From IMG/VR virus record IMGVR_UViG_3300037418_001222: a stretch of 64,000 bases of DNA. One strand, 5' to 3'. The notes under the pieces are model-generated. The model saw only the letters and a program-made list of their open reading frames with translations. It did not search any database and was not told the origin of the DNA. Positions 8,768 to 22,611 of this stretch are shown piece by piece (the stretch's first letter is position 1; every line of letters starts with the position of its first letter). The position numbers and the translations under genes were made by a program. The DNA is from a virus. Taxonomy: Duplodnaviria > Heunggongvirae > Uroviricota > Caudoviricetes.

Positions 8768-8875
8768 TCAGGCTGTCGCCTTGAGCTTAGTCCAACGTTT
8801 GATGTTTCTTTTCTTAGTACATCTATTTCCTGCTCCAGTTTTCCTGAAGCGAATACATCTAAAACATTTACACAT
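8768..8875 (-). CDS. Basic Cys-rich 35-aa peptide (MCKCFRCIRFRKTGAGNRCTKKRNIKRWTKLKATA)
   Basis: Read manually; ATG overlaps the gp45 stop (TAATG). Confidence 0.4.
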   Translation of the reverse strand: MCKCFRCIRFRKTGAGNRCTKKRNIKRWTKLKATA

Positions 8876-9528
8876 TAGTTGAATTTTGAGTTGGCTTCAA
8901 CTGCCACGTAATACTCAAGATCTTTAGACTTGAATCGAGAGATGACTGGAGTAATATCTACAGTATAGGTGTCTGGAAGCAGACGGATATTTTCTGCCTT
9001 AAAGTAGACCGTGAAGTTCTTATCGGTATCTCCAACTTCCACAGCATATGAATCTGAAGTTGGATCTTTAGAATTTACCGTCTGAACTGATACTACAGAT
9101 CCATCTCCAACAATAGCAATCTCTGGTTGGCGAAGAACGCCAAGTGCCTTAGTCACTCCACTCAAAACTTCAGAAGTGAGTTCGAAAGTTACGTCAGATG
9201 GTGGGAAATTGATCGAATCACTCTTTGGAACTACGATTGAATTCACATCGGCAAATACATAGTTTACCTTCTTCCTACCAGAAGAGATCTGAAGTGACTT
9301 ATCTCCGATAGAGAGTTCTGGATCATCAAATAGACTCAAGACGGATAGTAACTTGCTCAAGTCATAGATAGCGAATTGAGATGGAAACTCTTGTTCAAGA
9401 GTTGCTTTAGCGAAAATCGTCTTAGTTGGAGTAATCGTGGTGATTACATTACCAGGCTTAAATAGAATGCTCGGATTAATCGAGGAAAAATTCTTCAGAA
9501 CCTGAAGAGTACGCTGGTCAAGTTTCAT
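8875..9528 (-). CDS. gp45: Sliding clamp
   Basis: MKL...TLQVLKNFSSINPSI...FAIYDLSKLLSVLSLF...YYVAVE. Confidence 0.96.
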   Translation of the reverse strand: MKLDQRTLQVLKNFSSINPSILFKPGNVITTITPTKTIFAKATLEQEFPSQFAIYDLSKLLSVLSLFDDPELSIGDKSLQISSGRKKVNYVFADVNSIVVPKSDSINFPPSDVTFELTSEVLSGVTKALGVLRQPEIAIVGDGSVVSVQTVNSKDPTSDSYAVEVGDTDKNFTVYFKAENIRLLPDTYTVDITPVISRFKSKDLEYYVAVEANSKFN

Positions 9529-11378: not shown

Positions 11379-11732
11379 TTATTCCTCTTCTGAGTTGAAA
11401 TGATCATGGACGTATAACATCATGATGGCATAGTGACAGACTTTAAGAATGTCTGCTCTGTTCTTACCACCCTTCTTACCATATCGCTGAGCATACTTGA
11501 TGATATTCCCGATGGTGAAACCCTCACCATGTCCGGCGTCCATGATGAATTCTGTAGATTGGATTTTGGAGAGGGAATAGTGTTGATTGTACGTAGATGA
11601 AATGTACGTTAGAAGTTCCTGTAAATATAGATCTTCTTTAAATTTGTATTGTACTGGAATCTGTACAGTATTATCAAGAACACCATTAGAAGTAACCGTG
11701 TTCTCTAAAAGAGATTCTGAAGTATTGTCCAT
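11379..11732 (-). CDS. DUF3310-like protein (T4 61.1 / nucleotide-kinase-associated family)
   Basis: HY...GEGFTIGNIIKYAQRYGKKGG.NRADILK..HYA. Confidence 0.7.
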   Translation of the reverse strand: MDNTSESLLENTVTSNGVLDNTVQIPVQYKFKEDLYLQELLTYISSTYNQHYSLSKIQSTEFIMDAGHGEGFTIGNIIKYAQRYGKKGGKNRADILKVCHYAIMMLYVHDHFNSEEE

Positions 11733-11750
11733 AATAACTTTCTATTTATC

Positions 11751-12974
11751 TTACGCGAAGAAGTCCACTATTGTTTTAGAAGACTTCTCCTCCCAAATTT
11801 CATGTGTCTGGTGAGCATTCACTTGGTAGGTGTAGTTAGAATCAAGATAAGGTCTATTTCCGAGTAGGACTTCATTCACCTCTACAGCCATGTCCTTAGC
11901 TGTCTTCACTGGAACATTTTGACAGATATGATTAGCCGACTTCTTTGGATTTAGAAGTTCGAAATCGAGAGGCATGCCCATGATGGAGAGAGCTTCTCTG
12001 TAGTTGATGTACCTGTCGTGGTCCGGATGGGTGAGCATTGATGGGTAATGACCGACAAATGCACCGATAAAGTCCTTGGGGACGATGGTACCTCTGCGCA
12101 TGACGTTACCACCAGCAGCAAGCTTAGAATACTTATACTTACACTTTTCGACTTCTTTATCATATCCATGTTTCTCTAACCATGCGCCGACCTGCTTATA
12201 ATCATGTCCCTGTTGTTCGATGAATGAGAATGTATCATTAGATCTAACTTTCAGAAACTCCATCTTCTCATGAGAGAACTGACGATGAGTTAAACCACCA
12301 AACATCTCTTCAAGAATATATCTGTAATATGGATCGTCTTTTGATGGAGTCTTTGGATTGATAGGCTCCTGCATTGTATTGGACTTAGCATCACGAATTA
12401 CATCCTCAATCTTCTTCCAAGGACGATTATAATACCCAAGGAGTGGAGTCTTATTTCCCTTCCAGAAGAAATAGAATGTGCGTTCTCTTGTTTGAGCTGT
12501 TCCATGTAGAAGAGATCTAGTTCTATATACGGTCATAGAATAACCGTTATCGAGTCCAATCTTTCTTACTTGATTCCTGATATCTGCTCCAATTTTTCCA
12601 GCAAACCCTGGTGCATTTTCCCCCCAGAAAACATCTGGTTTGAGTTCTCCTAGGACATATTGGGCAGACCTAACCATCCACTGATTGTTTTGGTTGTGAG
12701 TGCCGAACCCGTGGCTAAGCTGACTAAGACCAGCGCAAGGACAGGTGGTGTTGACCACAGTAACTTTCCTAGCAGGACGCTCACCACGGTCAATATAGTG
12801 ATAAGGAAGATCAACACCACGCTGCTCACGATAATAATTGATAAGATGCGATTCATTGGCTTGAAAACCTTCATACGTCATTAAATATTCAGGTGGAGAT
12901 CCATTGGCCTCCTCCTGAGCTAAAGTCATTCCTCCGATTAATGGAATAATTGATGCGTGTGTAATATCATTCAT
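11751..12974 (-). CDS. DNA cytosine-C5 methyltransferase homologue with degenerate SAM-binding motifs
   Basis: Catalytic TCPCAGLS (IV), GENAP (VI), QTRER (VIII) and YREALSIMGMP (IX) are present; motif I reads SIIPLIGG and motif X reads ICQNV. Confidence 0.8.
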   Translation of the reverse strand: MNDITHASIIPLIGGMTLAQEEANGSPPEYLMTYEGFQANESHLINYYREQRGVDLPYHYIDRGERPARKVTVVNTTCPCAGLSQLSHGFGTHNQNNQWMVRSAQYVLGELKPDVFWGENAPGFAGKIGADIRNQVRKIGLDNGYSMTVYRTRSLLHGTAQTRERTFYFFWKGNKTPLLGYYNRPWKKIEDVIRDAKSNTMQEPINPKTPSKDDPYYRYILEEMFGGLTHRQFSHEKMEFLKVRSNDTFSFIEQQGHDYKQVGAWLEKHGYDKEVEKCKYKYSKLAAGGNVMRRGTIVPKDFIGAFVGHYPSMLTHPDHDRYINYREALSIMGMPLDFELLNPKKSANHICQNVPVKTAKDMAVEVNEVLLGNRPYLDSNYTYQVNAHQTHEIWEEKSSKTIVDFFA

Positions 12975-13060
12975 TAGTCTACGTCAAACCACACAATAGC
13001 TTTATCAAATAAAGCCCAGAATAGTAAAGTGAATGCAACAATTACTAAGAATAAAAGCAT
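12974..13060 (-). CDS. 28-aa hydrophobic peptide (MLLFLVIVAFTLLFWALFDKAIVWFDVD)
   Basis: Read manually; TAATG-coupled at both ends. Confidence 0.55.
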   Translation of the reverse strand: MLLFLVIVAFTLLFWALFDKAIVWFDVD

Positions 13061-14214
13061 TAGAAGAAACTCTCCAAGGAGGCTGAAGGTGGAAGTACTG
13101 GATGGGCTGGAAGACCCTGCTTCTTGGGATCTTTGATTTGAGTAGTATTATACTCTACACCATTCCAGTGTGGATAGGACATTCGTGATAAGTGAACTGA
13201 ATTCTTATACTCCATTGCATGGAGATCTAGTTCACCCTTCTTATTTAGTAAGTATTCTGTCCACCTAATAAATCTAACTGGAATATGAGGATTAAGTTTA
13301 CATAAACCTTCGATTCGATTATTGAATACTTTTCGAGCATTCATCCTCTCCTCCCAAGATCCCCAGAACGGTTTCTTCATAAACATGCCAGACTGTGGTA
13401 ACTTACGAGCTTCTTCCTCACATGGAAGTAATTCATAGATTCCAACGCTCCTAAGATTTACAAATTTACCAGAAGAAAACAGTTCACACGCTGCAGTATA
13501 ATAATCGAGGGATAAATCAGAAGGAGTTGGCCAAAGATCTGTTCCTTCTTTAGTCTCTGTTCGACAGAAGTGATGTCTTAGATCGATGTTTCCAAAATAT
13601 AATTCTACATTCTCCACCTGATCATGAGAATCATATGGATCCATGATAAATGATTCTAGTCCTGATTTAAGAGCTCCACGAAGCGTCTTATAAGGAACTG
13701 AATTAACAGTCCAACCAGGCCGGTACATACAGATAGAATGGCTATCGCCAATAACAATATTGGGAGTGACATTTGGATACCTCAATACTTCTGAAGACTC
13801 CATCCTCTTAAGATTATCCCAGTCAATCTCCTCGAATTCTGGTTTTGGAGTTCTTCCGTTTCCTTTATCTTGAGCGAGTTTCTCTTGTAGTTGTTGGTGA
13901 TAGTTAGGAAATGGTATTCCCAACGAAATAACTTCACCTTTAAATAGAGTTAAGTTTCTAAAGTTCCAAGCATATGGAAATCCTTCGGTTCCTCCATATA
14001 GATTAAGTCCACCAGACCAGTCATTACCATGATATACATAGACCTTATCGAACTCGTTAAAGTCATAGCATACGTGACCTCCGAAATTTACTACAACCTC
14101 ATCTCCGGTCGCCTGTTTAATCATATCAGCATAGATGACTCCCTGAGCTGCTCTATGTGATGCCATGAAGATGGCGATAGGAATAAACGGTGCTACTACT
14201 AAAGATCTTGCCAA
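13060..14214 (-). CDS. Protein with an SGNH/GDSL-like C-terminal domain
   Basis: VIGDSHS (block I), FGNID (block III), SVHL (block V); ends SASLESFF. Confidence 0.6.
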   Translation of the reverse strand: MARSLVVAPFIPIAIFMASHRAAQGVIYADMIKQATGDEVVVNFGGHVCYDFNEFDKVYVYHGNDWSGGLNLYGGTEGFPYAWNFRNLTLFKGEVISLGIPFPNYHQQLQEKLAQDKGNGRTPKPEFEEIDWDNLKRMESSEVLRYPNVTPNIVIGDSHSICMYRPGWTVNSVPYKTLRGALKSGLESFIMDPYDSHDQVENVELYFGNIDLRHHFCRTETKEGTDLWPTPSDLSLDYYTAACELFSSGKFVNLRSVGIYELLPCEEEARKLPQSGMFMKKPFWGSWEERMNARKVFNNRIEGLCKLNPHIPVRFIRWTEYLLNKKGELDLHAMEYKNSVHLSRMSYPHWNGVEYNTTQIKDPKKQGLPAHPVLPPSASLESFF

Positions 14215-14534
14215 GAGTCACCAATCCTTCTAGTCTCAAATGGAACTTTATTGACCTGATATACGTGATGAGCGGCTATCATTCCTCCTGACCACCCAAG
14301 GTCAGTATAGAATACAGCTTTATCTGCTACTCTAGACCAAGCGAGCCCCGCATCAATTCCTATTCTTCTCTCCTTAGGAATATCATCTCTAAGAATTCCT
14401 GGTTGAGTATATAGCAAATGAGATGCGATTGGAGCCTCTCCTCGAAGAATAGAGTCTCTTACACATCCTCTAGCATATTTTGTATTACGCTCAATGTTCC
14501 CTTTGTAAGGACTCTCAATTATCACGAGTTTCAT
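14199..14534 (-). CDS. DUF4406/DUF7768-like protein (nucleoside deoxyribosyltransferase-like fold)
   Basis: IESPY.G..ERN..YAR...RGEAPIASHLLYTQ...G.SGGM; start moved to the ATG at 14534 (ATGA overlap). Confidence 0.65.
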   Translation of the reverse strand: MKLVIIESPYKGNIERNTKYARGCVRDSILRGEAPIASHLLYTQPGILRDDIPKERRIGIDAGLAWSRVADKAVFYTDLGWSGGMIAAHHVYQVNKVPFETRRIGDSWQDL

Positions 14535-14782
14535 TCTGATTCTACTGGATATTCCGTAATAATAGCCACTTTGGCTCCACACTTAATGACTGGGTTTCCA
14601 TCTCTTGTCGAGATGATTCGAGCTACCGTATTACCATCTTTATCTTTGATAGCTATGGCGTGAGCTCTCTTGGTGACTTTACCAGAGGGAGTATTGCTTA
14701 CCCTAATTGCCGGATCGGGGTTCTGCCAATTCTTCTTGTTGTTTGAAGCGATTACATTCTTACATACTGAAATATAGTTCAA
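14531..14782 (-). CDS. Conserved phage hypothetical protein, 83 aa
   Basis: N..K...P.I.V...CGAKVAIIT pattern. Confidence 0.7.
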   Translation of the reverse strand: MNYISVCKNVIASNNKKNWQNPDPAIRVSNTPSGKVTKRAHAIAIKDKDGNTVARIISTRDGNPVIKCGAKVAIITEYPVESE

Positions 14783-14958
14783 TCTATAAACTCCTTTAGA
14801 AGTTCTATAACTACTGGAATTTGATACTCCCAGAGTTTATAAGAATCGCCGAGCCTATTTCGAGTTTCTTCGGTAACTGCCCAACCGGTTCCATCTGGAT
14901 CGATGCCTTTTACTTTACACACTCTTCGCGCATAATGTTCAATGTCACTATTAGCCAA
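14779..14958 (-). CDS. Hypothetical protein, about 59 aa
   Basis: Track ORF trimmed to the TTG at 14958 (GGAG SD 7 nt upstream), removing most of the overlap with the upstream gene. Confidence 0.55.
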   Translation of the reverse strand: MANSDIEHYARRVCKVKGIDPDGTGWAVTEETRNRLGDSYKLWEYQIPVVIELLKEFID

Positions 14959-16204
14959 AGAAATTCTCCAATGATGCTGATTGATTTCCAACCTCTTTAG
15001 AGATTGGAGCGGAAGCTCTAGCGTGTGCTGCTTGTGGATTACTTCGAAGTCTACAAAAAACGTTAAATTGGCAACTGCCAATCTCGATTCCAAAGGTAGT
15101 AAATCTACCTAGTTCTGTAGCTTCTGAGTGATACTTATAATCCAAGTCACTAGAAATGTCAAGGAATTTATGCTGCATATCTCTGATCTGAAGGATCAGA
15201 TGCATAGTGGTCTTTGGGTTGATCGCTACAGTAGGAAAGAGATTTTTAAGAGTAGCGGATGCGCCTGGACCAGCCACCACAAAATTAGCGTCTTCATCAA
15301 GTTCTCCATGTTCAATACCTAACTTATCGAATTCATATTTATGTTCTACTTCGATAATAGAAGAGCTACCAACACCCGGCATTCGAGACAGATTAGAAGA
15401 GAAGTGGTACCCGTAGTATGGTCCTATTCCTCTCAATGCAGTCAGATACTCATATGATCCCTGCATTGTTGGCTTTGTCTTATAGAATCTGCTCCATTCA
15501 GGAGTAAGACTCTTCAACCAAGCGATCATATCAGAAGTTCTCATCTTTCTCTGAGTATGATCTGAATTTGGCTCAATTATGACTCTATTATTGAAAGTAA
15601 GACCTCTACGATCTATGATAGTTCCATTAGCTCTAGCATAATTTCTAGATGCTATTTGTAGCGAAGTTCTAAGTTCAGTAGTTCCCCAGAGCTGTTCCTT
15701 ATGATGAGAGGCGAGCTCTATATTCCTCATGAGGGTGTATTCGTATTCCTCATCCTCTTGAATTCGTTTGAAATCAATGTACGGTAATTCTGTCCGAACC
15801 ACGTATGGTAGATCAGATACGTGTCCTGTGATGATGGAAAGGGTTCTAGAAGGACCGTAGAACTTAACAATGGCTGAGTTAACGAGTTTGTTTTCGAACG
15901 AGACTTCAGGTCGGAAATAGAGATTTGAATTAAGCCAGATGATCTCGTCGTGGAATGAACGATTGGGGTGGAAATATGGTATTGGTCTCCCGTCAATGAC
16001 AAATCCAGTACCGAAGTGTTCTTGATGTTGGTATCCCGACTTAACGTAATCTTCAAAGGTTTCATGAGTCTTCCCAATTCGTACACACCATTCTCTCTTA
16101 TTGAACTCTCTAATGAATGATCCGAATTGTTTTCTTACATCGTGATCACATATCTTCCAAAAATCAGAACCATCTAGAGATAAAGCTTCTTGTGTAGTCA
16201 ACAT
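14951..16204 (-). CDS. Divergent aGPT-Pplase clade-1 / 5-hmdU DNA kinase-like helical protein
   Basis: LTALRGIGPYYGYHFSSNL, FVVAGPGA and IEIGSCQF resemble the family's GIG.F..Y...Dl, GPGA and E..lCE motifs; ends SASLENFFG. Confidence 0.55.
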   Translation of the reverse strand: MLTTQEALSLDGSDFWKICDHDVRKQFGSFIREFNKREWCVRIGKTHETFEDYVKSGYQHQEHFGTGFVIDGRPIPYFHPNRSFHDEIIWLNSNLYFRPEVSFENKLVNSAIVKFYGPSRTLSIITGHVSDLPYVVRTELPYIDFKRIQEDEEYEYTLMRNIELASHHKEQLWGTTELRTSLQIASRNYARANGTIIDRRGLTFNNRVIIEPNSDHTQRKMRTSDMIAWLKSLTPEWSRFYKTKPTMQGSYEYLTALRGIGPYYGYHFSSNLSRMPGVGSSSIIEVEHKYEFDKLGIEHGELDEDANFVVAGPGASATLKNLFPTVAINPKTTMHLILQIRDMQHKFLDISSDLDYKYHSEATELGRFTTFGIEIGSCQFNVFCRLRSNPQAAHARASAPISKEVGNQSASLENFFG

Positions 16205-16379
16205 ATGTTCTTTTCATTCCTAATTCTTCTTTCAATCTACAAATTTCAAGAAACTGACCTTGAGTGCATCTTCCTTCTCTTTTAATTTTTGCTTCTAATT
16301 TTCTTAGAGCTTTTAACTTATTTCTATTCTGAGGTAGATTCCAAGGTTTTTGGTCCATGCCATACATTCTCTTTATCAA
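16164..16379 (-). CDS. Possible small basic hypothetical protein
   Basis: ORF track; covers the 120-nt gap but overlaps both neighbours. Confidence 0.35.
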   Translation of the reverse strand: MIKRMYGMDQKPWNLPQNRNKLKALRKLEAKIKREGRCTQGQFLEICRLKEELGMKRTYVDYTRSFISRWF

Positions 16380-16728
16380 CTAGGTCATGAACAATTCTCA
16401 CGACTTTAACTCTAGGGCACTCTTCTTCAATAATTAGAGCCTGAACTTCATCATCCTCAAAGTGGATTTTAATATCGTATCCAACATCTAAAAGATGATT
16501 TAGAGTTCTAGCCTTATGCTTTCCAGACTTTTCTCTAGTCTTGCTCTCGAATGCTACTGGAGAATAGAAGACCTTGTTATGAATATCCTGATGATCTAAC
16601 CAGTAGTCAGTGTATTCTTTCTCGTCAAGAGATCTACCGGTGATAATTACATCTTTAGGTCCTGGACGAAGACCGTTGTAATTATCACCAAGATAGATTA
16701 CACCATCGATATCGTATGAGTTAATCAC
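16324..16728 (-). CDS. HAD-superfamily phosphatase (capless)
   Basis: DIDGV (I), ITGRS (II), K (III), FEDD (IV). Confidence 0.85.
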   Translation of the reverse strand: MINSYDIDGVIYLGDNYNGLRPGPKDVIITGRSLDEKEYTDYWLDHQDIHNKVFYSPVAFESKTREKSGKHKARTLNHLLDVGYDIKIHFEDDEVQALIIEEECPRVKVVRIVHDLVDKENVWHGPKTLESTSE

Positions 16729-17119
16729 GATCTCTTACTTCAGTTGTAGGAGTATATGGAAATGTTACGTCTACTCGGCTCTCATAGTTTGTGACACAAC
16801 ATCCATCTGGATCTCTCCAAACAATTCCTTCAATATCATATGCTCGACCATTTTCTTTGAACACTCGAGGAGATCTTTTATTCTGATATAGATTCTCTCC
16901 GACCTCATTCCATTCAGAATCTTCACCAGTTAACGGCGTGAGAGGTTCAAATCTCATTAGCTTCTCAACGATCTGAGTTGTAAGTCCCGCAGAAAATCCA
17001 GAGTGACCCTGATTAGCAAACACTCTAACTAGTTCTAGAGCAGCGTCAGCGATCATGTTATTATATTCATCACCTCGAAAAGACTCGAGTTCTTTTTCAG
17101 CATATTCAACTAAGCTCAT
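16721..17119 (-). CDS. Conserved phage hypothetical protein
   Basis: AEKEL...F..QGHSGFSA...EPLTPLTGEDSEWNEV pattern. Confidence 0.75.
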   Translation of the reverse strand: MSLVEYAEKELESFRGDEYNNMIADAALELVRVFANQGHSGFSAGLTTQIVEKLMRFEPLTPLTGEDSEWNEVGENLYQNKRSPRVFKENGRAYDIEGIVWRDPDGCCVTNYESRVDVTFPYTPTTEVRDRD

Positions 17120-17163
17120 ATTTTCTTCTTTCTACAGTTATTTCCATGCCATCTCCCATATGC

Positions 17164-18354
17164 TTAGGCAACTTGTGATGTAAGTGCTTCTCTGACATTC
17201 TTCACTGGGAGGTTATTAGCAATAAGAGTTGGGGTTAACCTACGTTCGGCTAGAGCCTTGCACTCCTCGTATGCATCTTGGATCATCATTTGTTCGATTG
17301 GTGTCTTCTGAGTTGCAGCGGATGGGCCACGAAGAGAACCGACAAGTCCAAGTTCTCTAGCGACTTGTAAAAATCTTAGAGCGTCGATAACCACCCCGGC
17401 AGAGTTTGGCGAATCTTGGACAGACAGTCGAGCGTCGAATATGACTGGAGCTCCTCCGAAGCCTTCAGCTTCGATTCTGAAATGTGCGACCTTATTATCT
17501 CCATGGTACGCAATATAGCTTGATGGTCCTGCATAGATTCCATTCTTAGGGACTGGGATTCCTCGAATATCATTCTGGCTCCTGATTACGTTTTCTTTAG
17601 ATATCTTCTTTGAAGCAAGACGGCTCTGATCCATCATGTTGAGGAAGTCAGTGTTTCCACCATGGTTAGTCTGTTCATGGAACTTAACCTGCATTCCACG
17701 ATTGAAGAAGAGTTCCTGAAGCGCCTGACTTAGAACAGAAGCTCCGAGCTGAGAGCGCATATCATCACCAATCGCTGGAATTCCTGCTTCTTTAATTCGA
17801 GCTTCCCACTTAGGATCAGATACGATGAAGACTGGAATACAGTTTACGAATGGAACCTTAGCCTCAAGACAACCCTCAACATAGAACTCAGTAGCTTCCT
17901 GAGATCCGACTGGAAGATAATTTAGAAGGACATCGACCTTGTGGTCTTTTAGATCCTTAACTAGTTGTTCATGAGTGAGTTGCTCTGAAACTTCATCAAT
18001 ACGGAAAGCTTCATCCTCATCATAGTCAATCATGTGAGGGGCAACTCCGTCAAGAACGGCTCCCATCTTTACATATGTACTTCCTGTCACATCAAGAAGA
18101 TCTTCTTGATCGACATTGAAATTCATAGCACAGTTTGGTTTTTGGCTAATAGCAGCAGATAGATGTCTACCGACTTTACGTGGGTCCACGTCATAGGCAA
18201 GCACGAACTCGATGTTCTCTGCCTTATATCCACCAATTTCTGGAAATGCGAGACCGTCTGTCTGACCGGTCTTAGAGTAGAGAGCGACTCCCTCTACGAG
18301 AGATTTAAAACAATTGCCCACACCAACGGCGGCAACACGAATTTTATTTTGCAT
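17164..18354 (-). CDS. ino1: myo-inositol-1-phosphate synthase
   Basis: VGVGNCFKSLVEG NAD-binding start, LNYLPVGS, FVNCIPVFI, GDDMRSQLGA, NHGGNTDFLNM, GDNK, LSVQDSPNSAGVVIDA. Confidence 0.93.
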   Translation of the reverse strand: MQNKIRVAAVGVGNCFKSLVEGVALYSKTGQTDGLAFPEIGGYKAENIEFVLAYDVDPRKVGRHLSAAISQKPNCAMNFNVDQEDLLDVTGSTYVKMGAVLDGVAPHMIDYDEDEAFRIDEVSEQLTHEQLVKDLKDHKVDVLLNYLPVGSQEATEFYVEGCLEAKVPFVNCIPVFIVSDPKWEARIKEAGIPAIGDDMRSQLGASVLSQALQELFFNRGMQVKFHEQTNHGGNTDFLNMMDQSRLASKKISKENVIRSQNDIRGIPVPKNGIYAGPSSYIAYHGDNKVAHFRIEAEGFGGAPVIFDARLSVQDSPNSAGVVIDALRFLQVARELGLVGSLRGPSAATQKTPIEQMMIQDAYEECKALAERRLTPTLIANNLPVKNVREALTSQVA

Positions 18355-18446
18355 TAATCTGACCTTTCATATCAGTTGTTAACCCAGAGCGGCTCTCGCC
18401 TTTTGGCCTCTTATGAGGGTAGCTGGGAGATACGACCAACGTATCT
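18355..18446 (-). promoter_or_regulatory. Structured 5' leader of ino1
   Basis: AGATACG/CGTATCT hairpin, then a CCCAG/CTGGG stem enclosing short hairpins. Confidence 0.4.
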
Positions 18447-18449
18447 ATT

Positions 18450-18743
18450 TTATTTATAGTGATTGTAATTTTTGGCGATATCGCTTTGAAGAATGGCTAA
18501 TACACGACTCCTTCTTGCTTCTCTAGAATTTGTTGCTGGCCATTTATTCCAAGCATATTGATTAGCATAAAATGCGTCATTTACTAGAGTCCAAAGAGGA
18601 TCGTTTCTATCTTCTCTTTCAAACGTTAGAAATTGAGCAATAAATTGCTCTTGTAATTCTAAAGGGTCTAAAATAATTTCGATAATTTTATCGTACTCTC
18701 TTTGAGTCAATCCCTTTTTCTGTTCTTCTAATTTTTCATTCAT
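18450..18743 (-). CDS. Hypothetical protein, 97 aa
   Basis: ORF track; coupled to its neighbour. Confidence 0.65.
   Translation of the reverse strand: MNEKLEEQKKGLTQREYDKIIEIILDPLELQEQFIAQFLTFEREDRNDPLWTLVNDAFYANQYAWNKWPATNSREARRSRVLAILQSDIAKNYNHYK
18451..18458 (-). promoter_or_regulatory. T4-type late promoter upstream of ino1
   Basis: Exact TATAAATA. Confidence 0.6.
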
Positions 18744-19023
18744 TCAAATATGTCCTGCATTCATCTAAACACTTATTGACAAATTTATCATTTAGATCGA
18801 TTAACCAGACTGCTACTTCAAATGTTCCATCTGACTTCTGAATCCAGAATAAATCTTGCTGTGGGCAGTAAAAGAGTCTATTCATCCTCAATAGATATTC
18901 AGTATTTACTCGACACCCGGCTCCATTTTTAGTTTTGGAATATAGTGAGTGCTTCTGACAAAATCTAATAACTTTGTCGGTAAAACTCTTATTTTCACCC
19001 GGATTTGGTGTTAAGATACTCAC
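18736..19023 (-). CDS. Hypothetical protein, 95 aa, C-terminal helix duplicated from the UDG-like gene
   Basis: ORF track; NDKFVNKCLDECRTYLN versus NDDRFINKCLEECREYLN. Confidence 0.55.
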   Translation of the reverse strand: MSILTPNPGENKSFTDKVIRFCQKHSLYSKTKNGAGCRVNTEYLLRMNRLFYCPQQDLFWIQKSDGTFEVAVWLIDLNDKFVNKCLDECRTYLNE

Positions 19024-19432
19024 GACATTCTTCTAAACACTTATTGATGAACCTATCATCATTAATTTGTCTATTAAGGGGAGATGGATGGGGTAGCTTG
19101 AAGTGGTCTATGCCGGCCTTCATTAGAGCCTCAGCGGCAAAATTCCCCAAGGCAACTACCCTAGGAAACTTATATAGGGCTTTCCTCAAATTGTCAAGGT
19201 TTACTTGTGAGACTTTGCATTTTCCTGGGTGTGGATAAGCATTCATGAATGTAAAAGTATCAAGACCTAACTTTTCTACCCAATCATTCAAGCGAGGGAA
19301 GGTGTTCTTTCCCTTTGCAGCTTTGGCTGATGGATTCTGACCTACAAAAGCTACGATATCTGTAGAAGCTTCATAAACCAATTCCACGCTCTTGAGACCC
19401 TCGAGGGTTGATCCAATTTCAATATCTGACAT
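18995..19432 (-). CDS. Uracil-DNA glycosylase superfamily protein
   Basis: FVGQNP (motif A), VVALG..A and LPHPSPLN (motif B). Confidence 0.75.
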   Translation of the reverse strand: MSDIEIGSTLEGLKSVELVYEASTDIVAFVGQNPSAKAAKGKNTFPRLNDWVEKLGLDTFTFMNAYPHPGKCKVSQVNLDNLRKALYKFPRVVALGNFAAEALMKAGIDHFKLPHPSPLNRQINDDRFINKCLEECREYLNTKSG

Positions 19433-19881
19433 TAGTCTATACCAATATCTACTTCTACGATTTCAATTCCGGCCTCAGTGAAATAAGCCTTAGTCTTATT
19501 CACCGATTCCAACCAACGATCATATAATCTTTCAGGAAGAACTGGAGCTACAACTCTATTAATTCCAGCTTGGATCATGTGAACGGCGCACCTGTCACAA
19601 GATAAGAATGGCCAGGTGTAGAGAGTGCATCCTTTAACAGACCTCTGAGCATTCAATACAGCATTCATCTCACAATGAACGATCATTGAGTACTTAGTTG
19701 GTCTATCATTTAGTCTTTCTGGAGTATCTTTGAGACGATGTGGAAAACCATTATATCCTACTGATACGATATGTCTATCTTCGTCTACTATCACCGCTCC
19801 AGTTTGAGTAGACGGATCTTTACTCCAAGTCGAGATTAGTTTTGTTAATTCCAGGAACCGTAAGTCCCAATTCTTTTTCAT
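19432..19881 (-). CDS. cd: dCMP deaminase
   Basis: WSKDPSTQTGAVI, GYNGFP, HCEMNA, SCDRC; start moved to the ATG at 19881. Confidence 0.9.
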   Translation of the reverse strand: MKKNWDLRFLELTKLISTWSKDPSTQTGAVIVDEDRHIVSVGYNGFPHRLKDTPERLNDRPTKYSMIVHCEMNAVLNAQRSVKGCTLYTWPFLSCDRCAVHMIQAGINRVVAPVLPERLYDRWLESVNKTKAYFTEAGIEIVEVDIGID

Positions 19882-20110
19882 CAATTGCATCCATCGTGTT
19901 GTCAAAGATCTTGTGGAAGGCACTCATATCGTGACTACCATCATCCAAGTCTACAAAAACTTGAAGGAATAAGACCACAAGAGCATAGGTCCGTCTCTTG
20001 GGATAGAACGGTGTTGGTCCCTCATATACAACCTTTGGAATCCACTTCCAGTTGAATGGATTCAGGTTGAATCTAAGAGATATATCAGAGTTCTTTAGGT
20101 ATTTCATCAT
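19820..20110 (-). CDS. Hypothetical protein, 96 aa
   Basis: ORF track. Confidence 0.6.
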   Translation of the reverse strand: MMKYLKNSDISLRFNLNPFNWKWIPKVVYEGPTPFYPKRRTYALVVLFLQVFVDLDDGSHDMSAFHKIFDNTMDAIDEKELGLTVPGINKTNLDLE

Positions 20111-20216
20111 CTTTTGTTAATTCCAAAGTAGGAACTTCGTGCATTCTTGCTATGATGATAACTCCAGCATAGACTAAAGCTACAAATCCTATTACGATAA
20201 ATGCTATCATTGTCAT
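20085..20216 (-). CDS. 43-aa single-TM membrane peptide (MTMIAFIVIGFVALVYAGVIIIARMHE...)
   Basis: Read manually; TAATG-coupled to the gp42 stop. Confidence 0.55.
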   Translation of the reverse strand: MTMIAFIVIGFVALVYAGVIIIARMHEVPTLELTKDDEIPKEL

Positions 20217-20869
20217 TAGTTAATCAATCCAAAATGTCTCTCGTAGACGTGAAGGCTTCCGACTTGCCAAATAATATCTCCAGTAGGAACATCTAGTTCT
20301 TTACTAACTTTATTCAGAACATGCTTTGCCCATGACCAATCATTTTTATATCCAAAAACTACGTCATTAGATCTCATGGTTACTACCACGTGAACCTTAC
20401 CATCACGAATTAAATATTGATGAGCATTAGTGCAGATAAAATCACTCATTCCAGCTCGATTATACTCGAACTGAATACTTGGTCTAGTGTAAATCATGAT
20501 TGCTCTTCGAGAATACGGATCTCTTTTAAGAGCCTCTACACAACTCATGAACTGATCACAATTCTCACCTGAGTAGATCAGATATCCGTAATTCGAATTA
20601 ATCTCACCACTTGGAGTAGCAACTTGCTTCCAGATATGAGGAACTGGAGGTGGAATATCATTCACATTGAGAGACTGAGACTCATACCATTGAATCTCTC
20701 TTCTAACATAATCCTCATTAACTGTTCCGAAGATCGCCGGTTCATCTGCTAGAAATGATGCTCCCACCATCTCTACCATCTTACATCCGGTCTTATCGAT
20801 TACGAAGTTCTGTTTCTCGAGTTCCGTCTTGAAGTACGTCCTGATGTCTTGGATTGTTGTTCTCTGCAT
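20216..20869 (-). CDS. gp42: dCMP hydroxymethylase (thymidylate synthase family)
   Basis: Matches T4 gp42 as I recall it: DKTG.K..E..GASF.ADEP.IFG, GEINSNYG, SRR.IMIYTRPS, GMSDF.CTN (catalytic Cys), MRSNDVVFG..ND (cytosine-specifying Asp). Confidence 0.92.
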   Translation of the reverse strand: MQRTTIQDIRTYFKTELEKQNFVIDKTGCKMVEMVGASFLADEPAIFGTVNEDYVRREIQWYESQSLNVNDIPPPVPHIWKQVATPSGEINSNYGYLIYSGENCDQFMSCVEALKRDPYSRRAIMIYTRPSIQFEYNRAGMSDFICTNAHQYLIRDGKVHVVVTMRSNDVVFGYKNDWSWAKHVLNKVSKELDVPTGDIIWQVGSLHVYERHFGLIN

Positions 20870-21609
20870 TCAATTCTCTCTAGATGTTCTTTAATATCTT
20901 CTTCGTATCGATCTCCTATATCCGAAGGAGATCCTGCAACTTCAATCCTATCAATAATATTTGGATTGATCTTTTGCACGCATGTATGTTGTAATGAATC
21001 TGTGCAATTAATCTCCCCATGAGGAATCGTAATTGGACCAACATTAGCTACTTCTTTGGTATATGAAGCGGCTACTCTATTGATCCAACCAGTACCACTT
21101 TCATATTCAGTAGTAAATCCATCCTCTTCAACTTCATTTTCTACAATATTGTTATTCATTAGTATTGTATCATCAAATTTGATATAACTAGCTCTCACAC
21201 CATTAAGAGGATCATCACGAGCATCTACCGCTCGATCATACTCCTCTCGAGTCATTTCTGCTTCAAGTGGAACTGGGCGATTAATCATATCACGATTAAT
21301 ATCTTGACCTTCCATCTTTCCACGAATATATGATACAGCGAAAGAAGCATAGTTGATGAGATCTTTATAAGTGTCCTCTAGGCCTTCGAAATTAGGTTCA
21401 CTCGAATCACCATTCTCATACGTCTCAAGGAGTGACTGAGCTCGTAAGAGCTTCTGAGAGATCATATCATGAATGGTGGATACTCCTCGACGATAGTGCA
21501 TTGCCTGAAGAATATTTGACTTCTCGTTCTGGTAGTCTCTAGACTTCTTGAGCTGAAGTTCGATACATTCTTCAAGTACATGCACTGATTCACGCTTTGC
21601 TGAAGACAT
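20800..21609 (-). CDS. Nucleotide-modification-associated domain 1 (DUF1599)-like protein with a long C-terminal extension
   Basis: ELQLKKSRDY...K..RA..L...EGLEDTYKDLINYASF. Confidence 0.7.
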   Translation of the reverse strand: MSSAKRESVHVLEECIELQLKKSRDYQNEKSNILQAMHYRRGVSTIHDMISQKLLRAQSLLETYENGDSSEPNFEGLEDTYKDLINYASFAVSYIRGKMEGQDINRDMINRPVPLEAEMTREEYDRAVDARDDPLNGVRASYIKFDDTILMNNNIVENEVEEDGFTTEYESGTGWINRVAASYTKEVANVGPITIPHGEINCTDSLQHTCVQKINPNIIDRIEVAGSPSDIGDRYEEDIKEHLERIECREQQSKTSGRTSRRNSRNRTS

Positions 21610-22075
21610 TCTTATATCCTTTATATGCTGAAGGAGATAGGTTCCACATCAATTCAGATGCATTCCTGTCCTGTATTTTACCAATTTCTACAAGATTTGT
21701 CAACCTATAAAATTGGCAATATTGCTTATTGAAGTGATCTCGCCACTCATATCTTCGATTTGTTTCCGGATCTATGAGAGACTCTCGTATAGTTACGTAA
21801 TCTTCCGGAAGATCTGGAACTTCGATGAAGATGAGTCTATCTACGGATTCGCACTTTTTAGATTGTTGTACTGGAAGACAGAAGGCGTTGAACTTATAGA
21901 TTGGAAGTAGAGTCTTAACCTCTACCGTCTTTCCATCTATAATCATATCCTTCTCTGCGTCGAACTTATCCTCACTCATCGTGACTTTAAGTCCTTGATC
22001 TTCAAAGAACCTTCGAACTATTCCCTCACCCACAGCTCCCAAGGCTTCTTTACGTTGCCATGGGGTTAGAGTCAT
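21590..22075 (-). CDS. PD-(D/E)xK nuclease-like protein
   Basis: G..GE...D...EVK motif arrangement. Confidence 0.65.
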   Translation of the reverse strand: MTLTPWQRKEALGAVGEGIVRRFFEDQGLKVTMSEDKFDAEKDMIIDGKTVEVKTLLPIYKFNAFCLPVQQSKKCESVDRLIFIEVPDLPEDYVTIRESLIDPETNRRYEWRDHFNKQYCQFYRLTNLVEIGKIQDRNASELMWNLSPSAYKGYKNVFSKA

Positions 22076-22611
22076 TTGAATAGCTTACCAAAGTCCTTAA
22101 AGTCAATCCTGTCTAGTATTCCATGATTGTCTGAATGATCTGGTGCGGTCCATCCTTCTGGCTTACAGAGGTCTGGAAGTCCTAGAGGATTAGGTCTATT
22201 CGGCTTAATTCCTCGTTCCTTAGCCATATTAGCGTTATGAACTCGATTCCAAGCTTCTTGAGCGTCTACATCAAAACAATCCAGTGTTCCAATAGCGACG
22301 ACACAAAGATCAATCATGGCATCTACGATATCTTCTCCGGATTCGGCATTCTTTGCTTCATCTAATTCTTCTTGCAAGAAGTTAAGTCGGAACTTTAGCA
22401 TCTCACGAAGCATCTCAGGAGTCATCTTGCCGATGGCATCATGAAATCCGAATTTATCGTGCATATCATAGTTATCGAGCCACCATGGTCGATCAATATA
22501 GACCTCCATGTTTTCATCGAAATCTGGTGAGAAGGTAATATCTAGTGGTGGAAGAAAATCATCGATATTGATGATATTACTCTTCTCTTTTTCATTGTCA
22601 TTATCGTTCAT
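22072..22611 (-). CDS. MazG-like / PRA-PH NTP pyrophosphohydrolase (probable dCTPase-type function)
   Basis: RLNFLQEELDE...DAMIDL.VVAIGT...VH.ANMAK...KPEGW.APD. Confidence 0.85.
   Translation of the reverse strand: MNDNDNEKEKSNIINIDDFLPPLDITFSPDFDENMEVYIDRPWWLDNYDMHDKFGFHDAIGKMTPEMLREMLKFRLNFLQEELDEAKNAESGEDIVDAMIDLCVVAIGTLDCFDVDAQEAWNRVHNANMAKERGIKPNRPNPLGLPDLCKPEGWTAPDHSDNHGILDRIDFKDFGKLFK

What the first reader, a model, noticed from the sequence alone, without database searches (positions are those of the whole stretch)
11379..22611. Candidate new DNA hypermodification system: hydroxymethylcytosine decorated with inositol
Seen in sequence: one co-oriented, tightly coupled island encodes a T4 gp42-like dCMP hydroxymethylase (20216-20869), a MazG-type pyrophosphatase, an Nmad1-like protein, a dCMP deaminase, a UDG-like protein, myo-inositol-1-phosphate synthase, a HAD phosphatase, an aGPT-Pplase1/5-hmdU-kinase-like protein, an SGNH-like protein and a C5-MTase homologue. 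Established: gp42 plus a dCTPase gives hmC DNA in T4. MIPS converts glucose-6-P to inositol-1-P, and HAD phosphatases can release the free polyol. aGPT-Pplase-family enzymes activate or substitute the 5-hydroxymethyl group of pyrimidines in DNA. Inference: hmC in DNA is phosphorylated by the 14951-16204 protein and then substituted with (phospho)inositol, possibly by the rewired MTase, and perhaps acylated by the SGNH protein. No T4-type alpha/beta-glucosyltransferase is recognisable in the island. I know of no described inositol-modified phage base.
Basis: partly seen in the sequence, partly recalled or inferred. Interest (0 to 1): 0.92.

Follow-up and report, generated by a model that had tools for sequence, protein, structure and literature searches.

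The report
Phage inositol cassette for hydroxymethylcytosine DNA
An uncultured T4-like soil phage makes hydroxymethylcytosine DNA and carries, next to that enzyme, a widely conserved viral cassette of inositol synthesis genes and DNA-acting enzymes, which points to an undescribed inositol-type decoration of a DNA base that has not been shown chemically.

Summary
The gene content is confirmed. All genes lie on the minus strand, between T4 gp46/47 and the gp45 clamp.

- **Synthase:** the thymidylate-synthase homologue carries the full 5-hydroxymethyl-dCMP signature.
- **Link to inositol:** this rests on comparison. In about 110 viral contigs, an inositol-phosphate synthase (MIPS), a minimal HAD phosphatase, a two-domain SGNH protein and an aGPT-Pplase-family protein lie within about 4.4 kb. 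That holds whichever gene anchors the search.
- **The "kinase-like" 417-aa protein:** it has no kinase domain. It keeps the Glu-x3-Cys pair that is essential in the proven amino-acid:DNA transferase M6 gp51, so it is more likely the group transferase.
- **SGNH protein:** it is core to the cassette. It is fused to the transferase in Aeromonas phage 31 and in a triple fusion.
- **C5-methyltransferase-like gene:** it is accessory.
- **Clamp tails:** all three DNA-acting enzymes end in a tail like that of a close relative's DNA polymerase.
- **Correction:** the gene between MIPS and HAD is a Tad3-type Thoeris inhibitor.

Best reading, about 50%: inositol is added to an exocyclic methylene formed on 5hmC in DNA. 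No chemistry is shown. I found no paper describing this. This scan reported the same cassette earlier in at least eight other genomes.

The parts
22072..22611 (-). MazG/PRA-PH-type nucleotide pyrophosphatase, a candidate dCTPase (analogue of T4 gp56)
   Evidence: PF01503, E 1e-7. It is conserved at 54-70% identity in the close clade at the same position. The dCTPase role is inferred from the T4 paradigm.
21590..22075 (-). 161-aa protein of unknown family, conserved in the close clade
   Evidence: No Pfam or NCBIfam hit. Homologues of 33-74% identity occupy the same position.
20800..21609 (-). Nmad1/DUF1599-like protein; only the N-terminal 114 residues are conserved
   Evidence: PF07659, E 9e-5, below the cut-off. 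Relatives match residues 1-114 only. The remaining 155 residues overlap the gp42 start.
20216..20869 (-). 5-hydroxymethyl-dCMP synthase (T4 gp42 type)
   Evidence: PDB 1b49, E 7e-82, about 56% identity. The catalytic Cys is kept. Asp sits at the ThyA N177 position and at the L143 position. The ThyA D169 position keeps Asp, in the motif RSND. The diagnostic residues are taken from PMC13326640.
19432..19923 (-). dCMP deaminase
   Evidence: PF00383, E 2e-16.
18995..19432 (-). UDG-superfamily protein; role unknown
   Evidence: PF03167, E 7e-7. It is conserved in the close clade.
17164..18354 (-). myo-inositol-phosphate synthase family enzyme (NAD-dependent cyclitol-phosphate synthase)
   Evidence: PF01658 at 86.7 bits. 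PDB 1gr0 (M. tuberculosis Ino1), E 4e-74; next best is 6k96 (five-membered cyclitol-phosphate synthase), E 2e-49. There are 82 invariant columns in 19 viral homologues.
16324..16728 (-). Minimal (capless) HAD-type phosphatase; constant partner of MIPS
   Evidence: DxDGV, TGR, Lys72 and EDD are invariant in 19 homologues. phrog_415, region of the polynucleotide kinase family. It lies next to MIPS in IME-SM1, Cr30 and RP13 and in 28 of 31 well-flanked viral loci.
14951..16204 (-). aGPT-Pplase-superfamily (HMUDK_hel-type) protein with a Glu374-x3-Cys378 pair; candidate group:DNA transferase acting on 5hmC
   Evidence: PF18723 at 23.3 bits here and 33-51 bits in relatives. Atlas score 0.95. Glu374 and Cys378 are invariant and align with ExxxC of M6 gp51, M6 gp55 and the Cr30 ADDT protein. 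It has no kinase domain. The C-terminal tail is SLENFFG.
14531..14782 (-). 83-aa protein conserved in the closest relatives; role unknown
   Evidence: phrog_8676. It is 78-86% identical in L006 and L023 at the same position.
13060..14214 (-). Two-domain protein: an N-terminal flavodoxin-like domain (best match is the T4 beta-glucosyltransferase N-domain) and a C-terminal SGNH domain. Core partner of the transferase.
   Evidence: The whole-protein model has pLDDT 83.8. SGNH fold: Foldseek E 1e-5, and VIA-align Z 14.1 to 2hsj. GDSH, Gly180, GNID and His341 are invariant. The N-domain model has pLDDT 95; 1c3j gives Z 7.3 and 1qkj gives E 9e-3. It is fused to the transferase in Aeromonas phage 31 ORF233c and in P0181. 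The tail is SLESFF.
11751..12974 (-). C5-cytosine methyltransferase homologue with an altered motif I; accessory member
   Evidence: PF00145, E 2e-13. PC, ENAP, QxRxR, RE and QNV are invariant, and motif I reads IIPLIGG in 15 homologues. It is present in 13 of 41 well-flanked loci. It also lies beside Asp-type TS homologues in phage XG4 and cyanophage S-TIM5. The tail is IVDFFA.
11379..11732 (-). DUF3310 protein that follows the methyltransferase homologue in the close clade
   Evidence: PF11753, E 4e-11. It is conserved at the same position.
8875..9528 (-). gp45-type sliding clamp (context: the presumed docking site of the three tailed enzymes)
   Evidence: PF09116 and PF02916. Docking is inferred from tail similarity only.

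Best explanation
The island is a two-stage cytosine hypermodification system.

**Stage 1, before replication.** The MazG-type pyrophosphatase removes dCTP, the gp42-type enzyme makes 5-hydroxymethyl-dCMP, and 5hmC replaces C in phage DNA. The enzyme identity is shown at sequence level. The replacement itself is inferred from T4.

**Stage 2, on the DNA polymer.** A conserved four-gene cassette acts.
1. MIPS and the minimal HAD phosphatase make a free cyclitol, most likely myo-inositol from glucose-6-phosphate.
2. The 417-aa aGPT-Pplase-family protein works like the amino-acid:DNA transferases. Cys378 adds to C6 of 5hmC, and Glu374 helps expel the 5-hydroxyl, which leaves an exocyclic methylene.
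3. A hydroxyl of the cyclitol adds to that methylene and forms an ether-linked inosityl-oxymethyl-cytosine.
4. The two-domain SGNH protein is fused to the transferase in other phages and takes the place held by the P-loop kinase in thymine systems. It most likely prepares the leaving group by O-acylating 5hmC. Alternatively it acylates the attached cyclitol.
5. The methyltransferase homologue here, and an FkbM methyltransferase in other clades, are accessory tailoring enzymes.

All three DNA-acting enzymes are probably held at the fork by clamp-binding tails.

**Shown:** gene identities, catalytic motifs, folds, synteny and fusions. **Inferred:** every chemical step of stage 2.
For: **hmC synthase**
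- The 5hm-dCMP synthase signature is complete, judged by the published diagnostic residues.
- The same Asp-type signature is found in distant cassette-bearing contigs.

**Synteny**
- MIPS-anchored loci with at least 4 kb on both sides: 31. Of these, 30 have the SGNH protein, 30 the transferase-like protein and 28 the HAD.
- Transferase-anchored loci: 41. Of these, 40 have MIPS, 41 the SGNH protein and 39 the HAD.
- The median span of the four genes is 4.4 kb.

**Catalytic residues**
- The Glu-x3-Cys pair is invariant and aligns with that of M6 gp51. That pair is essential there, and a hydroxyl nucleophile (serine) is used by ViI gp247 (PMC8989533).
- No PF18748 kinase is present in five cassette-bearing genomes, with a positive control.

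**SGNH protein**
- SGNH fold with invariant catalytic blocks.
- Gene fusions: SGNH + transferase, FkbM + transferase, and FkbM + transferase + SGNH.

**Supply genes**
- MIPS and HAD catalytic motifs are invariant.
- Cassette swap: contig L154 keeps the gp42, SGNH, methyltransferase-like and DUF3310 frame. It replaces MIPS, HAD and the transferase with a divergent ExxxC protein and a PALP-like enzyme.
- MIPS + HAD also lie beside an ADDT gene in Cr30 and inside a 7-deazaguanine cluster in IME-SM1.

**Tails**
- The tails SLENFFG, SLESFF and IVDFFA occur on these three proteins only. They resemble the tail TLDDWF of the DNA polymerase of the closest complete relative.
Against: - No chemistry has been measured. 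Nothing shows that the cyclitol is bound to DNA.
- The best Pfam match is the HMUDK_hel type, as in M6 gp55, which the authors' lysate reactions could leave out. It is not the ADDT type, as in the proven transferase gp51.
- SGNH enzymes are esterases or acyltransferases. No acyl donor is identifiable, and no example of base activation by acylation is known to me.
- Aeromonas phages 31 and 44RR2.8t carry the SGNH-transferase fusion with gp42 but without MIPS or HAD. The pair therefore does not need inositol.
- IME-SM1, Cr30 and RP13 carry MIPS + HAD without the pair.
- MIPS scores well below the NCBIfam equivalog cut-off (286 against 638 bits), and the second-best PDB relative makes a five-membered cyclitol.
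- The similarity of the N-domain to T4 beta-glucosyltransferase is weak (Z 7.3).
Confidence: 0.5

Rival explanations
1. The 417-aa protein phosphorylates 5hmC in DNA. The rewired C5-methyltransferase homologue then substitutes the phosphate with inositol or phospho-inositol. The SGNH protein optionally acylates the product.
For: - The methyltransferase homologue keeps the catalytic Pro-Cys, ENx and QxRxR motifs, and motif I is altered.
- From my own knowledge, C5-methyltransferases can activate C6 and exchange groups at the 5-hydroxymethyl position in vitro.
- The homologue tracks Asp-type TS homologues even outside the cassette, in XG4 and S-TIM5.
- It carries a clamp-like tail.
Against: - The 417-aa protein has no P-loop or other kinase domain.
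- The PF18748 kinase is absent from cassette-bearing genomes, with a positive control.
- The methyltransferase homologue is missing from most cassettes, being present in 13 of 41 loci. The clade that carries an FkbM methyltransferase does without it.
- The 417-aa protein itself carries the transferase Glu/Cys pair.
Confidence: 0.1
2. 5hmC is hypermodified by the SGNH protein and the transferase with some other group, such as an acyl group, an amino acid or a polyamine. MIPS and HAD do something else: they supply a cofactor or co-substrate that is not kept on DNA, or they act in metabolic takeover or anti-defence. They travel with the cluster for regulatory reasons.
For: - Aeromonas phages 31 and 44RR2.8t have gp42 and the SGNH-transferase fusion without MIPS or HAD.
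- MIPS + HAD occur without the pair in IME-SM1, Cr30 and RP13.
- In this window a Tad3-type anti-Thoeris gene sits between MIPS and HAD.
Against: - The four genes stay within about 4.4 kb in about 110 loci across MIPS identities of 44-83% and several gene orders.
- Where MIPS + HAD occur alone, they still lie within or beside DNA-modification genes: ADDT in Cr30 and folE/QueC/QueE in IME-SM1.
- In L154 the MIPS/HAD slot is taken by a PALP-like enzyme, the kind that processes the transferred group in thymine systems.
- The Tad3 insertion is seen only here and in L006.
Confidence: 0.2
3. The pathway is as in the best explanation, but the transferred group is different. It could be inositol phosphate kept as a phosphodiester or phospho-ether, with the HAD enzyme acting afterwards or as a phosphotransferase. 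It could also be a different carbocycle, made by a MIPS-family enzyme with altered substrate or ring size.
For: - The second-best solved relative is the five-membered cyclitol-phosphate synthase 6k96 (E 2e-49).
- The score is far below the inositol-3-phosphate synthase equivalog cut-off.
- From my own knowledge, the HAD superfamily includes phosphotransferases and mutases.
Against: - The closest solved relative by a wide margin is a genuine inositol-3-phosphate synthase (1gr0, E 4e-74).
- The HAD protein has the plain phosphatase motif set and no cap domain.
Confidence: 0.12
4. There is no hypermodification beyond 5hmC. The tailed enzymes act on host DNA or serve repair or anti-restriction functions.
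For: - No donor-activating enzyme, nucleotidyltransferase or glycosyltransferase was recognised in the island.
- The UDG-like and denV genes nearby are repair-type genes.
Against: - The catalytic residues of all four cassette proteins are invariant.
- The cassette is consistently paired with Asp-type TS homologues.
- The proteins are homologous to proven base-modifying transferases.
- The cassette proteins are fused to one another in some phages.
Confidence: 0.06

Closest known systems
Thymidine hypermodification pathways of phages M6, ViI, PaMx11, PhiW-14 and SP10 (dUMP hydroxymethylase, P-loop 5-hmdU DNA kinase, aGPT-Pplase2/amino-acid:DNA transferase, tailoring enzymes; PMC8989533, PMC5889632)
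   Same: - A TS-family hydroxymethylase makes the handle before replication.
- A helical aGPT-Pplase-superfamily protein with a conserved Glu-x3-Cys pair then acts on the polymer.
- Tailoring genes are combined in many ways, and the components are fused in some phages.
- The transferred group can attack through a hydroxyl, as serine does in ViI.
   Different: - The base is cytosine: the TS homologue is of the Asp type.
- No P-loop kinase is present. A two-domain SGNH protein takes that partner position.
- The Pfam type is HMUDK_hel, not ADDT.
- The linked supply genes make a cyclitol rather than using an amino acid or polyamine.
T-even 5hmC glucosylation (gp56 dCTPase, gp42, alpha- and beta-glucosyltransferase)
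   Same: - A gp42 orthologue (56% identity), a MazG-type pyrophosphatase and a dCMP deaminase are present.
- 5hmC is decorated after replication.
- The N-domain of the SGNH protein has the acceptor-side domain of T4 beta-glucosyltransferase as its best structural match, although weakly.
   Different: - No alpha- or beta-glucosyltransferase family was detected, and no sugar-nucleotide donor is involved.
- The proposed bond is an ether formed through an exocyclic methylene, not a glycosidic bond.
Arabinosylated 5-hydroxycytosine of RB69 and DLP3 (PMC13326640)
   Same: A T4-like phage combines a TS-homologue-made cytosine handle with its own genes for making the group to be attached, including a HAD-type sugar phosphatase.
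   Different: - Those synthases carry Asn at the ThyA D169 position and make 5-hydroxy-dCMP. This one keeps Asp.
- Their transferases are GT-B glycosyltransferases that use a UDP-sugar.
Aeromonas phage 31 ORF233c / 44RR2.8t homologue (795-aa hypothetical protein, phrog_17781)
   Same: It is a direct fusion of the SGNH two-domain protein (33% identity) and the transferase-like protein (57% identity), in a T4-like phage that also has gp42.
   Different: It has no MIPS or HAD. It is uncharacterised, so it gives no function. It is the only cultured carrier I found for the SGNH-transferase pair.
MIPS + HAD pair of Stenotrophomonas phage IME-SM1 and relatives, Caulobacter phage Cr30 and Ralstonia phage RP13
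   Same: The same two-gene pair is present: MIPS at 46-57% identity and HAD at 36-50%. It again lies among DNA-modification genes.
   Different: - There is no SGNH protein, no HMUDK_hel-type protein nearby and no gp42.
- The partners are an ADDT gene and a TAGT-like gene in Cr30, and 7-deazaguanine genes in IME-SM1.

Membership tests
T4 gp42-type 5-hydroxymethyl-dCMP synthase | Thymidylate-synthase fold with the catalytic cysteine | tested here: met
   PF00303, E 1e-18. PDB 1b49, E 7e-82. The Cys in SDFICTN aligns with T4 Cys148.
T4 gp42-type 5-hydroxymethyl-dCMP synthase | Asp at the ThyA N177 position (dCMP rather than dUMP) and an acidic residue at the L143 position (hydroxymethyl rather than methyl) | tested here: met
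   The motif RSNDVVFGYKND ends in Asp, and Asp lies three residues before the Cys. The criteria come from PMC13326640.
5-hydroxy-dCMP synthase (RB69 gp48 type) | Asn at the ThyA D169 position | tested here: not met
   RSND keeps Asp here and in all cassette-bearing relatives checked. The criterion comes from PMC13326640.
myo-inositol-1(3)-phosphate synthase | The family domain is present and the closest solved relatives are genuine synthases | tested here: met
   PF01658 at 86.7 bits against a cut-off of 27. 1gr0, E 4e-74, over residues 3-357.
myo-inositol-1(3)-phosphate synthase | Equivalog-level score (TIGR03450), or a demonstrated product | tested here: not met
   286 bits against a cut-off of 638. 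The product cannot be tested here. The next relative, 6k96, makes a five-membered cyclitol.
HAD-superfamily phosphatase | Motifs I (DxDxT/V), II (T/S), III (K) and IV (acidic pair) | tested here: met
   D6, D8, G9 and V10; T30, G31 and R32; K72; E91, D92 and D93. All are invariant in 19 homologues.
HAD-superfamily phosphatase | Significant match to a curated HAD model or a solved HAD structure | tested here: inconclusive
   No Pfam hit up to E 1. No PDB profile hit. Only phrog_415 matched, at E 5e-9.
aGPT-Pplase superfamily (HMUDK_hel / ADDT) | Match to PF18723 or PF18724 | tested here: inconclusive
   The window protein scores 23.3 bits on PF18723, below the cut-off of 25. Family members score 33-51 bits, above it. 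None hits PF18724. Atlas score 0.95 to HMUDK_hel clusters.
aGPT-Pplase superfamily (HMUDK_hel / ADDT) | Conserved cysteine with a neighbouring glutamate, essential in M6 gp51 and ViI gp247 | tested here: met
   E374 and C378 are invariant in 17 homologues. They align with ExxxC of M6 gp51, M6 gp55 and the Cr30 ADDT protein.
Thymidine hypermodification system (5-HMUDK + AADT) | A P-loop 5-hmdU DNA kinase partner and a dUMP-type hydroxymethylase | tested here: not met
   PF18748 is absent from five cassette-bearing genomes, two of them complete, while M6 was found as a control. The TS homologue is of the dCMP type.
SGNH/GDSL hydrolase | SGNH fold | tested here: met
   Residues about 145-351. Foldseek E 1e-5, probability 1.0. 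VIA-align Z 14.1, rmsd 3.5 over 175 residues to 2hsj, with many other SGNH entries at Z above 10. AFDB E 9e-9.
SGNH/GDSL hydrolase | Blocks I (GDS), II (G), III (GxND) and V (DxxH) | tested here: inconclusive
   GDSH 156-159, G180, GNID 208-211 and H341 are invariant. The Asp three residues before the His is not conserved; E335 is invariant instead. No Pfam SGNH model matched.
C5-cytosine DNA methyltransferase | Catalytic motifs IV (PC), VI (ENV), VIII (QxRxR), IX and X | tested here: met
   PF00145, E 2e-13, over residues 13-364. CPCAGLS, GENAP, QxRxR, RE and QNV are invariant in 15 homologues.
C5-cytosine DNA methyltransferase | Motif I FxGxG, which binds the SAM cofactor | tested here: not met
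   Motif I reads IIPLIGG in the window and most of the 15 homologues (P11, L12, G14 and G15 are invariant), with Leu in place of the first Gly. N40-E41 and D62 are kept. Cofactor binding cannot be tested here.
T4 beta-glucosyltransferase | GT-B fold with a UDP-glucose-binding C-domain, or a sequence match to PF09198 | tested here: inconclusive
   Only the N-domain resembles the N-domain of the T4 enzyme: Z 7.3, rmsd 2.8 over 107 residues, and Foldseek E 9e-3. The C-domain is SGNH. PF09198 found no match in relatives, but no positive control was run.
Tad3 (type I Thoeris inhibitor) | Match to PF25185 above the cut-off | tested here: met
   16721-17119: 133 bits against a cut-off of 27, E 6e-39, covering positions 1-118 of 119. 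Activity was not tested.

The most novel reading that the evidence does not exclude
Many uncultured phages of soil, freshwater and sea carry DNA in which cytosine bears an ether-linked cyclitol (inosityl-oxymethyl-cytosine). It would be made without any sugar nucleotide and without a base kinase.

In this reading, a Glu/Cys aGPT-Pplase-type transferase forms the bond. It works with an SGNH enzyme that activates 5hmC by acylation. All are clamp-tethered at the fork.

The side-group supply genes would be interchangeable plug-in cassettes. MIPS + HAD sit here, a PALP-type enzyme sits in L154, and an FkbM methyltransferase is added elsewhere.
Probability: 0.4. Interest if true: 0.9.

Novelty: new variant of a known kind. 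Interest (0 to 1): 0.8.

Why it matters
- **New base chemistry.** A cyclitol on a DNA base would be a new class of natural DNA modification. It would extend the aGPT-Pplase transferase chemistry from thymine to cytosine.
- **A new activation route.** It would show a way to activate 5hmC without a kinase.
- **Ecology and defence.** The cassette is common in environmental phage contigs: 778 clusters (at 90% identity) of the SGNH partner alone, all unnamed. It may therefore shape which restriction and defence systems work against many uncultured T4-like and jumbo phages.
- **Tools.** Enzymes that put polyols on 5hmC could become tools for labelling 5hmC.
- **Testability.** The prediction can be checked directly with purified proteins and unglucosylated 5hmC DNA.

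Tried and rejected
- **Nucleotide search.** A near-identity search of the island against cultured phage genomes found nothing.
- **Whole genome.** None is held for this window. I used complete relatives instead.
- **Clamp docking.** The job folding three copies of gp45 with the last 50 residues of the 417-aa protein gave no verdict, because one control scored higher. It counts neither for nor against binding.
- **Profile comparison.** The 417-aa family against single sequences of the Cr30 ADDT protein and the IME-SM1 403-aa protein gave nothing. A plain MAFFT alignment with M6 gp51 and gp55 was informative instead.
- **HAD profile against PDB.** No hit.
- **Atlas search of the SGNH N-domain.** No usable hit. 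AFDB Swiss-Prot gave only generic flavodoxin-like matches.
- **Promoter and terminator scan.** Counts were no higher than in shuffled sequence.
- **Sequencing runs.** Only three rhizosphere DNA runs hold the stretch, and two of them may be the source sample. No RNA holder is listed.
- **Literature.** Searches for inositol with phage DNA modification found only incidental mentions. Nothing was found on the DNA chemistry of 44RR2.8t. A search for the Ari2 enzyme paper found nothing useful.
- **Ideas considered and dropped.** The 134-aa protein as QueD: its HAD motifs and its presence outside 7-deazaguanine clusters argue against it. The base as 5-hmU: the TS homologue is of the Asp type.

Full report
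**Anatomy**

The window is part of an uncultured T4-like phage. The contig that carries the window's own SGNH protein is 177.9 kb, and the stretch is held by rhizosphere metagenome runs.

The island lies on the minus strand. On one side are gp46/gp47-type recombination nuclease genes (24378-27282). On the other are a gp45-type sliding clamp (8875-9528) and the gp44 clamp loader.

Read in the direction of transcription, the genes are:
- denV-type glycosylase
- MazG/PRA-PH pyrophosphatase
- a 161-aa unknown
- Nmad1-like protein
- gp42-type synthase
- dCMP deaminase
- UDG-superfamily protein
- two small ORFs
- MIPS
- a Tad3-type protein
- a HAD-type protein
- the 417-aa aGPT-Pplase-like protein
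- an 83-aa protein
- a DUF7768 protein
- the 384-aa SGNH protein
- a C5-methyltransferase homologue
- DUF3310
- a VWA protein

Many stops and starts overlap. The exception is the gene between MIPS and HAD, which is a Tad3-type Thoeris inhibitor (PF25185, E 6e-39). According to a review, Tad3 binds ThsB (PMC13728456).

**The base handle is 5hmC**

The 217-aa TS homologue matches T4 dCMP hydroxymethylase at E 7e-82. It keeps the catalytic Cys. It has Asp at the ThyA N177 position and Asp at the L143 position.

It also keeps Asp at the ThyA D169 position. A 2026 paper found Asn at that position in every 5-hydroxy-dCMP synthase it tested (PMC13326640). By published sequence criteria, this is therefore a 5-hydroxymethyl-dCMP synthase.

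TS homologues in distant contigs that carry the cassette show the same three features.

**The cassette**

I started from MIPS and fetched 74 viral loci. I then started from a profile of the 417-aa family and fetched 79 loci out of 224 relatives.

| Anchor gene | Loci with at least 4 kb on both sides | MIPS | SGNH protein | Transferase-like protein | HAD |
|---|---|---|---|---|---|
| MIPS | 31 | 31 | 30 | 30 | 28 |
| 417-aa family | 41 | 40 | 41 | 41 | 39 |

- The four genes span a median of 4.4 kb in 111 loci. The two sets share contigs, so they are not independent samples.
- The link holds while MIPS identity to the window falls from 83% to 44%. It also holds in contigs of 80 to 360 kb.
- The usual order in the distant clades is SGNH, MIPS, HAD, one more gene, then the transferase-like gene.
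- That extra gene is an FkbM-type methyltransferase.
- The C5-methyltransferase homologue follows the transferase-like gene in the window's clade and in several distant clades, but only in 13 of the 41 loci.

**The 417-aa protein**

- It scores just under the PF18723 (HMUDK_hel) cut-off. Its relatives score above it. The language-model search places it among HMUDK_hel and ADDT clusters.
- It has no P-loop.
- In M6 the kinase is a separate 187-aa protein of family PF18748. HMUDK_hel is the neighbouring gp55, and the proven glycine:DNA transferase gp51 belongs to PF18724 (PMC8989533).
- An alignment of four members of the 417-aa family with M6 gp51, M6 gp55 and the Cr30 ADDT protein leaves four invariant columns. 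Two of them are Glu374 and Cys378. Both are invariant in the 17-member family alignment as well.
- The paper reports that this Cys and the neighbouring Glu are essential. It proposes that the Cys adds to C6 and that an exocyclic methylene is then attacked by an amine or a hydroxyl.
- PF18748 is absent from five cassette-bearing genomes, two of them complete, while M6 was detected as a control.
- The protein is therefore better read as a group transferase than as a kinase.

**The 384-aa protein**

- The AlphaFold model has pLDDT 83.8.
- Residues about 145-351 are an SGNH fold by three searches.
- GDSH, Gly180, GNID and His341 are invariant in 19 homologues.
- The N-terminal 146 residues, folded alone, give pLDDT 95. 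This is a flavodoxin-like domain.
- Its best hit in two independent searches is the N-domain of T4 beta-glucosyltransferase: Z 7.3 by VIA-align, and Foldseek E 9e-3. A 351-residue viral entry also appears in BFVD. This is a weak lead, not a finding.
- The protein is fused to the transferase-like protein in Aeromonas phage 31 ORF233c.
- In the opposite order, it is part of a 981-residue triple fusion of FkbM, transferase and SGNH. FkbM-transferase fusions also exist.
- These fusions argue that the three proteins act on one substrate.

**MIPS and HAD**

- MIPS is closest to M. tuberculosis Ino1 (E 4e-74). Next comes a five-membered cyclitol-phosphate synthase. It falls well below the NCBIfam equivalog cut-off. 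It has 82 invariant columns in 19 viral homologues.
- The 134-aa protein has all four HAD motifs invariant.
- The pair also travels alone. In Cr30 it lies beside an ADDT gene and a weak TAGT-like gene. In IME-SM1 it lies between folE and QueC/QueE. It is also present in RP13.

**A cassette swap**

A 179-kb contig (L154) keeps Nmad1, gp42, the deaminase, the SGNH protein (51% identity), the methyltransferase homologue (52%) and DUF3310, in the same order.

In place of MIPS, HAD and the transferase it has two other genes:
- a 340-aa protein with a weak HMUDK_hel match, an ExxxC motif and a GLGGFF tail;
- a 323-aa protein that resembles viral PALP-type clusters.

In thymine systems, PALP-type enzymes process the transferred amino acid. 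This swap fits the view that MIPS and HAD supply the transferred group.

**Clamp tails**

- The transferase-like protein ends in SLENFFG, the SGNH protein in SLESFF and the methyltransferase homologue in IVDFFA.
- No other real gene in the window ends this way.
- The tails are conserved across the families.
- The family B DNA polymerase of the closest complete relative ends in TLDDWF.
- From my own knowledge, the C-terminus of the T4 and RB69 polymerases binds gp45.
- I therefore infer that the three enzymes are clamp-tethered and act on DNA, whereas MIPS and HAD, which lack the tail, act on small molecules.

**Mechanism and its limits**

The most economical reading has four steps:
1. 5hmC is built into the DNA.
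2. The Glu/Cys transferase forms the exocyclic methylene.
3. Inositol made by MIPS and HAD adds through a hydroxyl.
4. The SGNH protein either acylates 5hmC to give a leaving group, replacing the missing kinase, or acylates the product.

Only gene identities, motifs, folds, synteny and fusions are shown. The points against:
- The best Pfam type is that of M6 gp55, which the authors' lysate reactions could leave out.
- No acyl donor can be named.
- Aeromonas phages have the pair without MIPS.
- No mass spectrometry exists.

I put 0.5 on a cyclitol bound to 5hmC. I put about 0.85 on the broader claim that this is a 5hmC hypermodification system.

**Novelty**

I found no paper in the held library that links inositol to phage DNA modification.

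This scan had already reported the same cassette in at least eight other genomes, with similar conclusions. Those are unchecked AI notes. My conclusions rest on the tests above.

Noticed in passing
window 16721-17119 (-): A Tad3-type type I Thoeris inhibitor (PF25185, E 6e-39) is inserted between MIPS and HAD. Among the fetched loci, only L006 has it at this place.
   Followed up: partly
window 14199-14582 (-): A DUF7768 protein (E 1e-27; it also matches a PHROG family annotated as nucleoside 2-deoxyribosyltransferase) lies between the transferase-like gene and the SGNH gene. No fetched relative has it there.
   Followed up: no
window 20800-21267 (-): The Nmad1-like ORF runs 155 residues beyond the part conserved in relatives. 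It ends in an Arg/Ser-rich stretch and overlaps the gp42 start by 70 bases. The spacer before gp42 is about 400 bases here, against about 150 in relatives.
   Followed up: no
L150 (cyanophage S-TIM5) and L151 (Pseudoalteromonas phage XG4): The same C5-methyltransferase-like family (28-31% identity) occurs without the inositol cassette, a few kb from TS homologues with Asp at the ThyA N177 position. The family seems tied to cytosine-hydroxymethylating phages in general.
   Followed up: partly
L154 5711-7850: This is a variant island. MIPS, HAD and the 417-aa gene are replaced by a 340-aa ExxxC protein with a GLGGFF tail and a 323-aa PALP-like protein. A possible GT-A-like gene follows DUF3310.
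   Followed up: partly
P0181, P0168, P0179 (metagenomic proteins): An FkbM methyltransferase is fused to the transferase-like domain, and P0181 also carries the SGNH protein. Other family members (P0167, P0169, P0172, P0180) have a C-terminal domain of about 60 residues with an NWKE(S/T)W motif in place of the clamp-like tail.
   Followed up: partly
L002 (Stenotrophomonas phage IME-SM1) 8317-13617: MIPS and HAD sit inside a 7-deazaguanine cluster, in the order folE, MIPS, HAD, QueC, a 403-aa protein with no Pfam hit, QueE.
   Followed up: partly
L003 (Caulobacter phage Cr30) 5735-9182: An ADDT-family gene (PF18724, E 1e-52) and a weak TAGT-like gene lie directly upstream of MIPS. Cr30 has only a canonical Asn-type thymidylate synthase and no PF18748 kinase.
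   Followed up: partly
L084 (Ralstonia phage RP13): Its TS homologue has Ile at the ThyA N177 position (motif RSQDLIWGLCSI). That is neither the dUMP nor the dCMP type.
   Followed up: no
window 23232-24378 and 10765-11376 (-): A peptide deformylase and a YspA/SLOG-family protein flank the island on one side. A VWA-domain protein flanks it on the other.
   Followed up: no
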